Source: Alphaproteobacteria bacterium MarineAlpha5_Bin12
GTDB taxonomy: Bacteria; Pseudomonadota; Alphaproteobacteria; HIMB59; GCA-002718135
Length of the DNA stretch: 64,000 nucleotides
Direction: 5' to 3'
NCBI GenBank assembly: GCA_002937855.1
Contig: PTKS01000003.1
Location: forward strand, 44,915 to 108,914
The position numbers were made by a program. Shown one piece after another: positions 45,001-48,000 of this stretch; position 1 is the stretch's first letter, and each line of letters starts with the position of its first letter.

Positions 45001-48000
45001 ATTTCATCAATAATTATTTCATCATGAAACATATTTTCAAAAAGTTTAACTGATTTATTATTTAAATTTTTTAAAAAATCTTTTATTCCATCTTTAAAAT
45101 AAAAATGATCTTTAATTGGAATCGATGTTTTTTTTATAACTTCTTTATCACAGGACCATTCTATTTCTGAATTTTTTACAAGATAAGCTTTTATTTTTAA
45201 ATTTTCATATATTTTTTGAACATTAAATTTGTCATTTTCAAATATTTTTGAATCTGGTTTAAATGATACCTTTGTTCCCTTTAAATTTTTTTTGCATTTT
45301 TTTTTGGTTAATTTGCTTTTAGGTATTCCTCTTTTGTATATTTGAGAAAATTCAAATCCTTTGTGGTATACTTTTATTATTAATTCTTCACTTAATGCAT
45401 TTACAACGGATAATCCAACTCCATGCAAGCCACCAGAAGTATTATATAATTTATTGTTAAATTTTCCACCAGAATGTAGAGTTGTTAGAACTACTTCTAA
45501 TGCACTTTTATTTTTAAATTTTGGATGTTTATCTGTGGGAATTCCTCTTCCATCATCGGTGATAGTAATAAAATTATTTTTTGAAAAATGTAATTTAACT
45601 TTTTTTGCATTTTTTGATAATATTTCATCAATCGAATTATCTAAAATTTCATTTACTAAATGATGTAAACCATATTCGTCAGTTGACCCAATATACATCC
45701 CCGGTCTTTTTCTAACTGGTTCAAGGCCTTTAAGGACTTCAATATCTTTTGCTGAATATGATAAGTTTTTTTTCAATTCTTTTATTTATCAGAAATTTTA
45801 TTAAAAAATAACAAAAAAAACCGCTAAAATTATTCTAGCGGTTTTTTTATTTTTTATGCATCATAATAAAGATTAAATTCATATGGGTGTGGTCTCAAAT
45901 CCATTTGATTAACCTCATTTTCCCTTTTAAAAGATATATAAGTTTCAATGTTTTCTTTTGTAAACACATTACCCTCAAGTAGATAACTATGATCTTTTTC
46001 AAGAGCAATTAAAGATTCATTTAGTGATCCAGGTGTTGAAGCAATTTTAGCTAGTGTTTTAGCTGAAGCTTCGTAAATATTAATATCTTTAGGCTTACCT
46101 GGGTCAATTTTATTTTTAACACCATCTAATCCTGCCATCAATATAGCAGAAAAAGCAAGATAAGGATTTGATGATGGGTCTGGGCATCTAAATTCTATTC
46201 TTTTAGCATTAGGGCTAGCAGTATAATTATTTGGAATTCTAATAGAAGCAGTTCTATTAGCTTGAGAATATGCAATATTTACTGGTGCTTCAAAACCAGG
46301 AACTAGTCGTTTATAAGAATTTGTTGTTGGGGCACAAAAAGCTAATAATGATGGGGTATGTTTCAATATACCTCCAATGTAGTGCAAAGCGAAGTCACTT
46401 AAGTCGGCATAATTACCTTTTTTATACATTAATGTTTTATTTTTTTTCCAAATGCTAGAATGTATATGCATACCAGATCCATTATCTTCAAATAATGGTT
46501 TAGGCATAAAAGTTGCAGTTAGACCGTGTTGTTTCGCAACATTTTTTACAACATATTTGTATTTTAAAAGATCATCAGCCATAGATAACAGAGGTGAAAA
46601 TTCTAAATCAATTTCGCACTGTCCACCAGTAGCTACCTCATGGTGAGAAGCTTCAACGCTAATCCCAATATTTTGCATAGTTAGAACCATATCAGTTCTC
46701 ACATCTTGTAAGCTATCAGTTGGAGGTAGTGGAAAATATCCTTGTTTGTGTCTTGGTTTATGACCTAAGTTTGGATTTTCATCACGTCCCGTATTCCAAG
46801 TTCCTTCTGAAGAATCTACTTCATGGAAAGAAAAATTTGAACCTGAGTCATATTTGATATCATTAAATACAAAAAACTCTGCCTCGGGTCCAAAGTATGC
46901 AGTATCTCCTAAGCCTGAACTTTTCAAATATTGTTCAGCTTTTTTAGCTATATATCTCGGGTCTTTAATATAATTCTTATAGGTTATAGGATCAACTATA
47001 TCACAATAAAATGCAATAGTTTTTTCAGAATAAAAAGGATCCAAATAAGCAGATGTTACATCTGGCACCATAGTCATATCACTGTTTTCTATTGATTGAA
47101 ATCCTCTTACCGATGATCCATCAAAGCCGACGCCATCAATAAATAAATCTTCTTTTAAATATTTAATTGGTACCGATATGTGATGAGTTGATCCGGGCAT
47201 ATCCGTAAAACGAAGATCAATCATTTTGATATCTTCATTTTTAATCTTTTTTATAAGTTCTTTAGCAGTTTTGCAGTTATATTTCATAATTACCTCTAGC
47301 TTTAAATCAACCACTCCTACTCATTAAGAATGGTAAAATGTATTCATGCTGTAGTTATGAAATCTGCTTTTTGTGCGCGTTCCTTCAGCTTTAGCTTACT
47401 TCCGACTTATTGTATAATAAGTTGAACGATTTTATAACTTGCATGCGTTCCTTCGACCTAAGTCTACTTCCGTCTCCTCGGAGATGAACGATGAGGATGA
47501 TTTATAATAAAAAATAAAAAAAATAAAGCATTTTTTATAATTATTATTATAAAATTGATATTTTTTAGCTAAATTATTAAATATAGTGATATATATGCAA
47601 AAAATGGCGAACGTAGCTCAGTTGGTTAGAGCGCAGGCTTGTGGTGCCTGATGTCGAGGGTTCGAATCCCTTCGTTCGCCCCATTTATTATATAAATTTA
47701 ATTAATATTATTACATTTCTTTGTTGTTTATCTAAAAAAAAGTCTTAAAAGCAAAAAATGGATTAAGGGCCGGTGGTGGAATTGGTAGACACGCGAGATT
47801 TAGGTTCTCGTGCCGTGAGGTGTGAAGGTTCAAGTCCTTTCCGGCCTACCAATTTAAGATTGAGGAGTATTTGTAATGCAAGTAAAAGAAATACAATCAA
47901 AAAAATTATTCAAAGAATATTTGATTGAAGTGCCTCATAATGAAATTGATGAAAAAACTGATTTAAAAATTAAAGAATTAGCTCCCAAAACAAATTTACC

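What the first reader, a model, noticed from the sequence alone, without database searches (positions are those of the whole stretch)
47377..47492. Tandem glutamine riboswitch ahead of glnA
Seen: two aptamers 14 nt apart with identical cores (ATCGTTCA, CGGAAGTA, GAAGGAACGC) but completely different P2 and P3 sequences that still pair (TCTC/GAGA versus ACTTATT/AATAAGT; GAC/GTC versus AGC/GCT). Known: the glnA motif binds L-glutamine, and tandem copies are reported from marine metagenomes; the well-studied cyanobacterial case is an ON switch for gifB. Inference: here it must turn glnA OFF, giving RNA-based nitrogen control in a streamlined alphaproteobacterium-like host.
Basis: partly seen in the sequence, partly recalled or inferred. 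Interest (0 to 1): 0.68.

Follow-up and report, generated by a model that had tools for sequence, protein, structure and literature searches.

The report
Tandem glutamine riboswitch before glnA
Two copies of an already known glutamine-sensing RNA sit in front of the glutamine synthetase gene of an uncultured HIMB59-like marine bacterium; comparison with relatives suggests the pair works as one device that blocks translation when glutamine is plentiful, but this is untested.

Summary
Two matches to the Rfam glutamine riboswitch (RF01739; 61.6 and 67.0 bits against a cut-off of 35) lie on the minus strand at 47492-47374. Their cores are 14 nt apart, and the second ends 87 nt upstream of a type I glnA.

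The host is an uncultured HIMB59/AEGEAN-169-like alphaproteobacterium. In its GTDB family, 78 of 80 sampled genomes carry the motif; 0 of 71 in the sister family do.

Both the glnA association and the tandem form are already published from anonymous marine metagenomes. Three details appear new:
- **Host:** the lineage is now identified.
- **Protein sensors:** no PII or GlnE was found in this genome, which is 93% complete.
- **Shared read-out:** an invariant linker pairs with a conserved downstream block, enclosing aptamer 2. The same block is complementary to the glnA start-codon region, and a covarying hairpin brings the two together.

The known elementary step is that glutamine melts the helix attached 3' of P1. 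From this I infer a translational OFF switch, at about 0.55-0.6 confidence. The direction, the transcription start and ligand binding are untested.

This is a new member of a known kind, of moderate interest.

The parts
47501..47528 (-). Putative sigma-70-type promoter: -35 CTTTAT (47528-47523), 16-nt spacer, -10 TATAAA (47506-47501). The expected transcription start is about 47495-47493, just 5' of aptamer 1.
   Evidence: Read from the sequence. The -35-like CTTTAY and its spacing align with the CTTTAC in all 16 relatives, although the DNA further upstream is unrelated. The consensus scanner did not call it; it called a weaker site at 47601-47573.
47442..47492 (-). Glutamine aptamer 1 (RF01739). 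P1 is CGUUC 47490-47486 with GAACG 47450-47446; P2 is UCUCC/GGAGA; P3 is GAC/GUC. The 'linchpin' C directly 3' of P1 is 47445.
   Evidence: cmscan 61.6 bits, E 3.4e-11, full model; sequence.
47429..47445 (-). Inter-aptamer linker CAUGCAAGUUAUAAAAU, the proposed switching (anti-sequestor) strand. P0a 5' strand is CAUGC 47445-47441; P0b is AGUUAU 47439-47434; P0c is AAAU 47432-47429.
   Evidence: Nearly invariant across 17 glnA leaders and 77 unique leaders of three gene classes. RNAalifold pairs it with the downstream block in two leader classes analysed separately.
47374..47430 (-). Glutamine aptamer 2 (RF01739). P1 is CGUUC 47428-47424 with GAACG 47382-47378; P2 is ACUUAUU/AAUAAGU; P3 is AGC/GCU. 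The linchpin C is 47377.
   Evidence: cmscan 67.0 bits, E 1.1e-12, alignment shown.
47345..47367 (-). Conserved post-aptamer block GCAGAUUUCAUAACUACAGCAUG, which has two mutually exclusive partners. With the linker it uses AUUU 47363-47360, AUAACU 47358-47353 and GCAUG 47349-47345. With the start-codon region it uses GCAG-AUUUCAUAA 47367-47355.
   Evidence: Conservation. The minimum-free-energy fold of the window leader pairs it with the start region. Cognate block:start-region duplexes are about 2.5-3 kcal/mol better than cross-class pairs. The P0 and sequestered ensembles are close in energy (window +0.9 kcal/mol).
47310..47334 (-). Variable 'clamp' hairpin: ACCAUUCUUA, loop AUGAG, UAGGAGUGGU (10 bp). 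It brings the block next to the start region.
   Evidence: A hairpin at this place in all 26 unique glnA leaders, with unrelated sequences between genera; mean dG -9.8 kcal/mol, mean z -3.4 against shuffles (window -10.6, z -3.6). The scanner did not call it a terminator.
47273..47297 (-). Translation-initiation region of glnA: SD AGAGGU 47297-47292; UUAUGAAAU 47289-47281 (start codon 47287-47285); CUGC 47276-47273. This is the proposed target of the block.
   Evidence: Mean unpaired probability of positions -12 to +6 is 0.71 with P0 enforced and 0.30 with the linker blocked.
45854..47287 (-). glnA, type I glutamine synthetase, 477 aa. This is the regulated gene.
   Evidence: TIGR00653, 642.7 bits against a cut-off of 429; translation.

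Best explanation
This is a tandem type-1 glutamine riboswitch (glnA RNA motif, RF01739) in the 5' UTR of the type I glutamine synthetase gene of an uncultured HIMB59/AEGEAN-169-like marine alphaproteobacterium.

**Architecture.** The two aptamers are not two separate switches. They share one translational read-out.
- **P0 helix:** the 17-nt linker between the aptamers pairs with a conserved 23-nt block downstream of aptamer 2, and this helix encloses aptamer 2.
- **Alternative partner:** the same block is complementary to the glnA start-codon region.
- **Clamp:** a covarying hairpin between the block and that region holds them close.

**Proposed mechanism (inferred, not shown).**
- **Low glutamine:** P0 holds the block, the ribosome-binding region is open, and GS is made.
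- **High glutamine:** the C directly 3' of aptamer 1's P1, which is the first base of P0, is drawn into the aptamer's long-range G-C pair. The attached helix melts. This is the elementary step published for this aptamer class.
- **Aptamer 2:** it probably strains the other end of the linker. This part is the most speculative.
- **Outcome:** the freed block pairs with UUAUGAAAU, which contains the start codon, and translation stops.

This gives product feedback on GS in a genome where I found no PII or GlnE.
For: **Identity**
- Two full-length RF01739 hits far above the cut-off.
- glnA = TIGR00653.
- The same pair at the same distance in 16 of 16 related glnA loci, and in none of 4 Pelagibacteraceae glnA loci.
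- Present in 78 of 80 genomes of the family and 0 of 71 of the sister family.

**Single shared platform**
- Only 14 nt lie between the cores.
- The linker and the block are nearly invariant across genera, and also across paralogous leaders of glnA, amt and an ATP-grasp operon.
- RNAalifold predicts the linker:block helix around aptamer 2 in the glnA class (27 sequences) and the amt class (32 sequences) analysed separately.
- P0a is canonical in 77 of 77 leaders. P0b changes only by U-A to U.G or A-U to G.U.

**Sequestor**
- The minimum-free-energy fold of the window leader pairs GCAG-AUUUCAUAA with UUAUGAAAU...CUGC.
- The block covaries with the start region between classes: AUUUCAUAA with UUAUGAAAU, against UUUCCAUA with UAUGGAG. 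One glnA leader (L085) carries the second pairing.
- Cognate duplexes score -9.4 and -8.7 kcal/mol; swapped pairs score -6.2 and -6.8.
- The clamp hairpin is present in all 26 unique glnA leaders with different sequences.

**Switch-like energetics**
- P0-enforced and linker-blocked ensembles differ by -0.04 +/- 2.0 kcal/mol in the glnA class (window +0.9).
- Start-region accessibility is 0.54 against 0.35 (window 0.71 against 0.30).

**Sign**
- Ren 2015, as described in PMC6212724: glutamine forms a G-C pair with the C 3' of P1 and melts the short helix attached there.
- In SAR86-type leaders of small ORFs in my own data, that tail pairs directly with the SD and covaries (CAUCU/AGAUG, CACCU/GGGUG, CACU/AGUG). 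This is the ON layout.
- Here the tail's partner is the anti-start block, which adds one inversion and gives OFF.
- Physiology agrees: glnA and amt leaders carry the same cassette.

**No protein glutamine sensors found:** PII and GlnE are absent.
Against: - No experiment or transcript data.
- P0 rests on conserved complementarity and one-sided changes only. There is not one double-sided compensatory change. A protein or sRNA binding site could also explain the conservation.
- For the window's own sequence, P0 is not the predicted minimum-free-energy fold under any constraint I tried unless it is enforced. Its linker is a shifted variant (CAUGCAAGUUAUAAAAU), giving a 1x3 internal loop.
- Nearest-neighbour models cannot say whether a glutamine-bound aptamer 2, enclosed by P0, stabilises or destabilises P0.
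- The block:start-codon complementarity in the glnA class involves AUGAAA, which I expect to be a very common gene start in AT-rich genomes (not counted here). Class-level covariation amounts to only about two or three independent events.
- The ATP-grasp uORF class shows no cognate advantage.
Confidence: 0.58

Rival explanations
1. Same aptamers and same linker/block/start-codon platform, but an ON switch. Glutamine binding closes P1 of aptamer 2, which shortens the loop enclosed by P0. This stabilises P0, keeps the block away from the start codon, and so raises GS synthesis.
For: P0 encloses aptamer 2 and abuts its P1, so compaction of aptamer 2 could favour P0. The only experimentally characterised glutamine riboswitch, gifB, is an ON switch (PMC6212724). 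With aptamers merely enforced, P0 is the minimum-free-energy fold in several relatives.
Against: Glutamine-activated synthesis of both GS and high-affinity-type ammonium transporters, which share the cassette, runs against nitrogen regulation as I know it in other bacteria. The first base of P0 is the linchpin C of aptamer 1, which the bound state removes from helices attached to P1.
Confidence: 0.15
2. Transcription attenuation. The variable hairpin (47334-47310) is an intrinsic terminator whose formation is controlled by the aptamers, so glutamine stops transcription before glnA.
For: In several relatives the hairpin is followed by a run of 5-7 U (L003, L005, L006, L009, L087) or by UUUUGUU in genus g2.
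Against: Many leaders have no U run, including the window (GGUUGAUUUAAAG). The scanner found no terminator in 47100-47900. The hairpin's strands vary freely, whereas the conserved block and linker do not vary with them, so no conserved antiterminator can be drawn. The start-codon and SD complementarity of the block would be left unexplained.
Confidence: 0.1
3. Two independent riboswitches in series ('pseudo-cooperative', as tandem glutamine riboswitches are classed in the tandem-riboswitch survey), each acting alone. The conserved linker and block are bound by a protein or sRNA, or the block alone is the platform of aptamer 2 and aptamer 1 is redundant.
For: PMC9481103 lists 157 doublets as pseudo-cooperative systems. 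There is no double-sided covariation in P0. A true single-aptamer leader exists before another amt in relatives (L106, L127).
Against: 14 nt cannot hold a separate expression platform for aptamer 1. The linker is invariant in sequence as well as length, and is complementary to the block in every class. The single-aptamer leaders lack both linker and block.
Confidence: 0.12
4. Non-functional relic or chance resemblance.
For: None beyond the lack of experiments.
Against: E-values of 1e-11 to 1e-12. The element is conserved in 78 of 80 family genomes, with compensatory P2/P3 variation between copies.
Confidence: 0.01

Closest known systems
Type-1 glutamine riboswitch (glnA RNA motif, Rfam RF01739), characterised in the Synechocystis gifB leader (Klähn et al. 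2018, PMC6212724; aptamer structure Ren et al. 2015)
   Same: Same aptamer class: P1/P2/P3 junction, invariant UCA / CGGAAGUA / GAAGGAACG-C, and the linchpin C 3' of P1. It also sits in the 5' UTR of a nitrogen-assimilation gene. The proposed first step is the same: glutamine melts the helix attached 3' of P1.
   Different: gifB has a single aptamer whose tail pairs with the ribosome-binding site, giving an ON switch for a GS inhibitor. Here there are two aptamers. The tail pairs with an anti-start block, adding one logic inversion (OFF inferred). The gene is GS itself, and the host is an alphaproteobacterium, not a cyanobacterium.
Environmental tandem glnA RNAs upstream of glnA, amt and PII genes in marine metagenomes (Weinberg 2010, PMC2864571; Ames & Breaker 2011; Sherlock 2022, PMC9481103: 157 doublets)
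   Same: This is very probably one of those sequences: the tandem arrangement, the glnA/amt association and the marine origin all match.
   Different: Those reports left the host and the regulatory direction open (PMC6212724 says so explicitly) and class the doublets as pseudo-cooperative. Here the host lineage is identified and a single shared platform is proposed.
Tandem glycine riboswitch (two aptamers, one expression platform, with a leader-linker helix)
   Same: Two homologous aptamers joined by a short conserved linker, followed by one platform. The linker takes part in a helix with a flanking segment.
   Different: Different aptamer fold and ligand. In glycine riboswitches the linker pairs with the 5' leader (PMC4201829 names the leader helix; the pairing with the linker is from my memory of other work) and is part of the sensor. 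Here it pairs with the 3' trailer and is proposed to be the switching strand.
SAR86 / gammaproteobacterial tandem glutamine riboswitches seen here
   Same: Same aptamer class in tandem, in marine streamlined heterotrophs, some also before a glutamine synthetase.
   Different: Different linkers: 4-7 nt, or a hairpin linker CGCCGUUA...UAACG, with up to three aptamers. Different platforms too: before small ORFs the last aptamer's tail pairs directly with the SD.

Membership tests
Glutamine riboswitch type 1 / glnA RNA motif (RF01739) | Covariance-model score at or above Rfam's gathering cut-off (35 bits) over the full model | tested here: met
   61.6 and 67.0 bits, model positions 1-53 of 53 for both (repeated on the genome).
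Glutamine riboswitch type 1 / glnA RNA motif (RF01739) | Three-stem junction with conserved junction strands (AUCGUUCA, CGGAAGUA, GAAGGAACG) and variable but pairing P2 and P3 | tested here: met
   Both copies carry identical cores. P2 is UCUCC/GGAGA in one and ACUUAUU/AAUAAGU in the other; P3 is GAC/GUC and AGC/GCU. Relatives show further compensatory P2/P3 variants.
Glutamine riboswitch type 1 / glnA RNA motif (RF01739) | C directly 3' of P1, available for the long-range G-C 'linchpin' pair of the bound state (Ren 2015, via PMC6212724) | tested here: met
   C47445 and C47377 follow GGAACG in both aptamers. This shows presence in the sequence only; the pair itself was not observed.
Glutamine riboswitch type 1 / glnA RNA motif (RF01739) | Selective binding of L-glutamine (millimolar Kd) with structural change | not testable with these tools
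   Needs in-line probing, ITC or SHAPE.
Glutamine riboswitch type 1 / glnA RNA motif (RF01739) | Lies in the transcribed 5' leader, on the same strand, of a nitrogen-metabolism gene | tested here: inconclusive
   Same strand and 87 nt upstream of glnA (TIGR00653). A conserved promoter-like CTTTAY-N16-TAWAAA lies just upstream of aptamer 1.
Glutamine riboswitch type 1 / glnA RNA motif (RF01739) | Glutamine-dependent control of the downstream gene | not testable with these tools
   Reporter or toeprint assays are needed. Only structural inference is available.
Tandem (multi-aptamer) glutamine riboswitch arrangements (Sherlock 2022) | Two or more aptamers of the same class adjacent on one leader | tested here: met
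   Two aptamers with 14 nt between cores. The arrangement is conserved in 16 of 16 related glnA loci.
Dual-aptamer, single-expression-platform riboswitch (glycine-like architecture) | No separate expression platform between the aptamers; one platform after the second; the linker takes part in a conserved helix | tested here: inconclusive
   The linker is too short for a platform, is invariant, and is predicted to pair with the trailer block in two leader classes. The helix has no double-sided covariation, and interplay between the aptamers is untested.

The most novel reading that the evidence does not exclude
The pair is one two-input device. Both aptamers grip the same 17-nt switching strand from its two ends: aptamer 1 through its 3' linchpin tail, aptamer 2 through its 5' flank (in amt-type leaders, also through its tail pairing with the anti-SD core). 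Both must bind glutamine to release the anti-start block, which gives a steep, AND-like translational OFF response. In this genus, which lacks glnB and glnE, this RNA would be the only glutamine sensor controlling ammonium assimilation in a free-living bacterium. The same portable cassette defines a small glutamine regulon (glnA, two amt genes, an ATP-grasp/alpha-E operon) in the family and has spread to SAR116-labelled genomes.
Probability: 0.3. Interest if true: 0.6.

Novelty: new member of a known kind. Interest (0 to 1): 0.4.

Why it matters
Klähn et al. (2018) stated that glutamine aptamers upstream of glnA genes exist only in anonymous marine metagenome reads. They added that neither the organisms nor the effect of glutamine on glnA expression were known.

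This locus and its relatives supply three things:
- **Host:** an abundant uncultured HIMB59/AEGEAN-169-like family. The sampled sister family, which includes a closed single-contig genome, lacks the motif.
- **Regulon:** glnA, amt genes and an ATP-grasp operon in relatives.
- **Mechanism:** a concrete, mutationally testable design for an OFF version of a riboswitch class known experimentally only as an ON switch.

It also illustrates how a streamlined ocean bacterium without PII or GlnE may control nitrogen assimilation with about 200 nt of RNA.

The aptamer class, its tandem form and its glnA association are not new.

Tried and rejected
- **First collection scan was too loose.** GAAGGAACGC-N5-30-TCGTTCA returned mostly chance hits such as Collinsella. 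A three-block pattern worked.
- **Papers not held.** Ames & Breaker 2011 and Ren 2015 are not in the library. Their content is cited only through PMC6212724, or marked as memory.
- **Leader peptide rejected.** The 7-codon ORF starting at the conserved GCAUG (47347; MNTFYHS*) is 2 to 14 codons long in relatives, so it is not conserved as an ORF.
- **In-frame GTG start rejected.** The GTG at 47314 listed by the ORF finder is unlikely. The ATG at 47287 has an SD (AGAGGU) at the right spacing and matches the N-termini of relatives.
- **Terminator reading.** No terminator was called, and U runs after the hairpin are not universal.
- **Anti-SD in aptamer 1's 5' flank rejected.** The CCUC at 47496-47493 occurs in the window only and is not conserved.
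- **Constraint folding for the sign.** Forcing the aptamers shut or open does not decide ON against OFF, because the platform does not overlap P1.
- **Upstream palindrome.** TATGCA-N5-TGCATA is found before amt and ATP-grasp leaders of relatives, but is absent from glnA leaders and from this window.
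Full report
**1. Observation**

Reading the minus strand of 47500-47370 shows two units with identical cores.
- **Aptamer 1:** ATCGTTCA 47492-47485, CGGAAGTA 47472-47465, GAAGGAACGC 47454-47445. Its stems are TCTCC/GGAGA and GAC/GTC.
- **Aptamer 2:** ATCGTTCA 47430-47423, CGGAAGTA 47404-47397, GAAGGAACGC 47386-47377. Its stems are ACTTATT/AATAAGT and AGC/GCT.
- **Spacing:** 14 nt (ATGCAAGTTATAAA) separate the cores.

A cmscan of the whole window against Rfam 15 at gathering thresholds returns RF01739, 'Glutamine riboswitch aptamer (glnA leader)'. 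The hits are at 47492-47442 (61.6 bits, E 3.4e-11) and 47430-47374 (67.0 bits, E 1.1e-12). Both span model positions 1-53 of 53, and the cut-off is 35 bits.

They are the only copies in the 1.50 Mb, 20-contig, 92.8%-complete genome.

The next gene on the same strand runs from ATG 47287 to the stop at 45854 (477 aa). It is a type I glutamine synthetase (TIGR00653, 642.7 bits against a 429 cut-off). A gyrB/parE-type topoisomerase subunit follows it.

Upstream, on the other strand, lie tRNA-His (47607-47683) and tRNA-Leu (47767-47851).

**2. Whose genome**

The closest GlnA loci (78-90% identity) are SAGs and MAGs titled 'uncultured Alphaproteobacteria', 'HIMB59-LRMED', 'MarineAlpha5' and one 'Pelagibacteraceae' MAG.
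- **Close relatives:** all 16 such loci carry the same two RF01739 hits at the same distance from the ATG. Four true Pelagibacteraceae glnA loci carry none.
- **Across the order:** 78 of 80 genomes of the window's family have the motif, and 0 of 71 genomes of the sister family do. The sister family includes a closed single-contig 1.4 Mb genome.
- **Copy number:** in the largest genus there are up to eight copies, that is, four tandem pairs.
- **Genes served in genome G001:** the pairs precede glnA (directly after glnB), two adjacent amt genes, and an operon starting with a 469-aa protein plus an alpha-E-like protein. Earlier notes of this scan call it an ATP-grasp operon; I did not type it. 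The operon is reached through a short coupled uORF.
- **This window's genus:** it has only the glnA pair.

**3. Nitrogen-sensing proteins in this genome**

- **PII:** none found. tblastn with the relatives' GlnB gave no hit, and PF00543 gave none.
- **GlnE:** none found (PF03710).
- **Ammonium transporter:** one Amt, not riboswitch-led, next to a GlnA paralogue.
- **Sigma-54 activator:** one protein with the activator domain.
- **Gene order:** in relatives glnB sits directly upstream of the riboswitch. Here it is gone and tRNA genes flank the leader. The promoter-like CTTTAY-N16-TAWAAA just 5' of aptamer 1 is nevertheless retained.

**4. Anatomy of the leader**

An alignment of 17 glnA leaders, then 77 unique leaders of three gene classes, shows four elements beyond the aptamers.

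(a) **The linker.** It is invariant in sequence as well as length. It reads CAUGC-A(1-3)-AGUUAU-(A/U)AAAU, and in the window CAUGCAAGUUAUAAAAU (47445-47429).

(b) **A conserved block 10-20 nt after aptamer 2.** In glnA leaders it reads GCAG-AUUUCAUAACU-AGA-GCAUG (window 47367-47345). In amt and ATP-grasp leaders it reads AAUUUCCAUAGCU-AA-GCAUG.

(c) **A hairpin of 10-12 bp with unrelated sequences between genera.** In the window it is ACCAUUCUUA/UAGGAGUGGU (47334-47310). It is present in all 26 unique glnA leaders, with mean dG -9.8 kcal/mol and mean z -3.4 against shuffles.

(d) **The SD and start codon.**

**5. The block has two partners**

*Partner 1: the linker.* The pairings are CAUGC:GCAUG, AGUUAU:AUAACU and AAAU:AUUU with a bulged C. 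Together they form a long-range helix, here called P0, that encloses aptamer 2.
- RNAalifold, run separately on the glnA class (27 sequences) and the amt class (32 sequences), predicts exactly this helix in both.
- P0a is canonical in 77 of 77 leaders. P0b changes only by U-A to U.G and A-U to G.U, apart from one variant group discussed next.
- In that group, the linker change AU to UG/AG co-occurs with an AC insertion in the block.
- There is no double-sided compensatory change. P0 is therefore supported by conserved complementarity and consensus folding, but not proven by covariation.

*Partner 2: the translation-initiation region.*
- In the window's unconstrained minimum-free-energy fold, GCAG-AUUUCAUAA pairs with UUAUGAAAU (start codon 47287-47285) and with CUGC (47276-47273). 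The hairpin sits on top as a clamp.
- Across classes the block covaries with its target. AUUUCAUAA goes with UUAUGAAAU in most glnA leaders. UUUCCAUA goes with UAUGGAG (the SD) in amt leaders, and also in one glnA leader that has that SD (L085).
- Cognate block:start-region duplexes average -9.4 and -8.7 kcal/mol. Swapped pairs average -6.2 and -6.8.
- The uORF class shows no such advantage.

*Energetics.* With the aptamers enforced, I compared ensembles with P0 enforced against ensembles with the linker blocked.

| Measure | glnA class | Window |
|---|---|---|
| Free-energy difference, P0 enforced minus linker blocked (kcal/mol) | -0.04 +/- 2.0 | +0.9 |
| Start-region unpaired probability, P0 enforced | 0.54 | 0.71 |
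| Start-region unpaired probability, linker blocked | 0.35 | 0.30 |

Near-equal energies are what a thermodynamic switch would need. The caveat is that for the window itself P0 is never the minimum-free-energy fold unless it is enforced.

**6. Direction of control (inferred)**

The platform does not overlap P1, so forcing the aptamers open or shut does not decide the sign. The argument for OFF has three steps.

(i) **The published elementary step.** PMC6212724, describing Ren et al. 2015, reports that glutamine binding forms a long-range G-C pair with the C directly 3' of P1 and melts a short helix attached to P1. In gifB that helix sequesters the ribosome-binding site, so the switch is ON.

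(ii) **The ON layout appears in my own data.** In SAR86-type tandem leaders before small ORFs, the last aptamer's tail pairs with the SD region and covaries with it: CAUCU/AGAUG, CACCU/GGGUG, CACU/AGUG, CUUCU/AGGAG.

(iii) **Here there is one extra inversion.** The tail of aptamer 1 (C47445-AUGC) is the 5' strand of P0a, and its partner is the 3' end of the anti-start block, not the SD. Melting it should release the block onto the start codon, which gives OFF.

Physiology agrees, since glnA and amt leaders share the cassette. Klähn et al. also called negative control 'reasonable' but unknown.

How aptamer 2 contributes is the weakest part. Its 5' flank (AAAU) is the end of P0. In amt-type leaders its tail (CGGA) is predicted to pair with the anti-SD core UCC. 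That suggests both aptamers hold the block.

I put the translational-OFF, single-platform reading at about 0.58. The rivals are:

| Rival reading | Confidence |
|---|---|
| Same platform, but an ON switch | 0.15 |
| Attenuation through the hairpin | 0.10 |
| Two independent switches | 0.12 |

Against attenuation, U runs follow the hairpin in some relatives but not here, and no terminator was called.

**7. What is known**

- Weinberg 2010 described glnA RNAs upstream of PII, GS, GOGAT and amt genes, and noted tandem copies.
- Sherlock 2022 counted 157 doublets and 4 triplets and classed them as pseudo-cooperative.
- Klähn 2018 found the glnA-gene association only in marine metagenomes. They stated that neither the effect on glnA nor the taxonomic affiliation was known.
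- Searches for 'glutamine riboswitch' with HIMB59, AEGEAN-169, SAR11 or Pelagibacter found no paper linking the motif to this lineage. The AEGEAN-169 genomics paper does not mention riboswitches.
- The Pelagibacter nitrogen-limitation study mentions the glutamine-sensing riboswitch only as known from cyanobacteria and marine metagenomes, and describes none before P. ubique glnA.

The element is therefore a new member of a known kind. The host, the absence of PII and GlnE, and the shared platform appear to be undescribed details, as far as the library I could search shows.

**8. Earlier notes of this scan**

Notes on other genomes reached similar 'one device' readings. I treated them as leads only.

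One claim, an upstream palindrome, I tested. TATGCA-N5-TGCATA lies about 73 nt upstream of aptamer 1 in 51 of 64 amt/ATP-grasp-type leaders, but not in typical glnA leaders or in this window.

**9. Limits**

- There are no binding or reporter data.
- Two key primary papers were not available.
- Class-level covariation rests on few independent events.

Noticed in passing
whole genome G000 (window = C14:44915-108914): No PII protein (PF00543, or tblastn with the relatives' GlnB) and no GlnE (PF03710) in this 93%-complete genome. Relatives in the same family have glnB directly upstream of the riboswitch-glnA unit. Here tRNA-His and tRNA-Leu flank the leader instead. One Sigma54_activat protein lies at C14:159123-159602.
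   Followed up: partly
window 45854-47287 (-): Outside its own clade, this GlnA is closest to GSI of cyanobacteria, Acidobacteriota and Thermomicrobiales (about 57-62% identity). Pelagibacteraceae GlnA is only 49-51% identical. This fits the other first-reader note that the gene looks xenologous. No tree was built.
   Followed up: partly
related loci L131/L112/L168 etc.; G001:C3:119934-120055: The same tandem cassette precedes an operon of a 469-aa protein, an alpha-E-like protein and a third ORF. Earlier notes of this scan call it an ATP-grasp/alpha-E/transglutaminase operon; I did not run family searches on it. The block there is complementary to the start codon of a roughly 20-codon uORF whose stop overlaps the main ATG (TGATG).
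   Followed up: partly
related loci, about 73 nt upstream of aptamer 1 (e.g. L168, L236): A palindrome TATGCA-N5-TGCATA sits at a fixed distance upstream of 51 of 64 amt/ATP-grasp-type leaders. It is absent from typical glnA leaders and from this window. From memory it resembles NtrC-type TGCA half-sites, so it may be an operator that adds transcriptional control.
   Followed up: partly
loci L255, L258, L260, L268, L274, L310, L311, L316, L322, L323 (SAR86 and other Gammaproteobacteria; L316 is labelled Rhodospirillaceae): A different tandem architecture. The linkers are 4-7 nt, and the last aptamer's 3' tail pairs with the SD region with clear covariation (CAUCU/AGAUG, CACCU/GGGUG, CACU/AGUG). 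It sits in front of small ORFs, which is the ON-type layout.
   Followed up: no
loci L265, L283, L291, L295, L325, L341, L346, L356 (Gammaproteobacteria/SAR86-like): A third architecture. Two or three aptamers are joined by a hairpin linker (CGCCGUUA...UAACG) or a short linker. In several of these loci they sit in front of a different glutamine synthetase, whose N-terminus MSDIKTYEYVWLDG looks GSII-like from memory.
   Followed up: no
loci L106 and L127 (G021:C6:5565-5624): A genuine single glutamine aptamer stands before a third Amt type that has no signal peptide. It lacks the linker and block. Its 3' tail CAUUCCUUU could pair either with the P1 3' strand or near the SD, so the sign may differ from the tandem cassette.
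   Followed up: no
loci L159, L267, L319, L358 (genomes of 1.9-2.2 Mb; three of the four are labelled SAR116 or Rhodobacterales): The HIMB59-type cassette (CAUGC linker plus block) also precedes amt in larger genomes labelled as other orders. This suggests lateral spread of the cassette with amt, or mislabelled bins.
   Followed up: partly
window 47876-53560 (+): Four ORFs of 447, 208, 422 and 797 aa follow the two tRNAs. By size, order and the first N-terminus they look like tig-clpP-clpX-lon. No family search was run.
   Followed up: no
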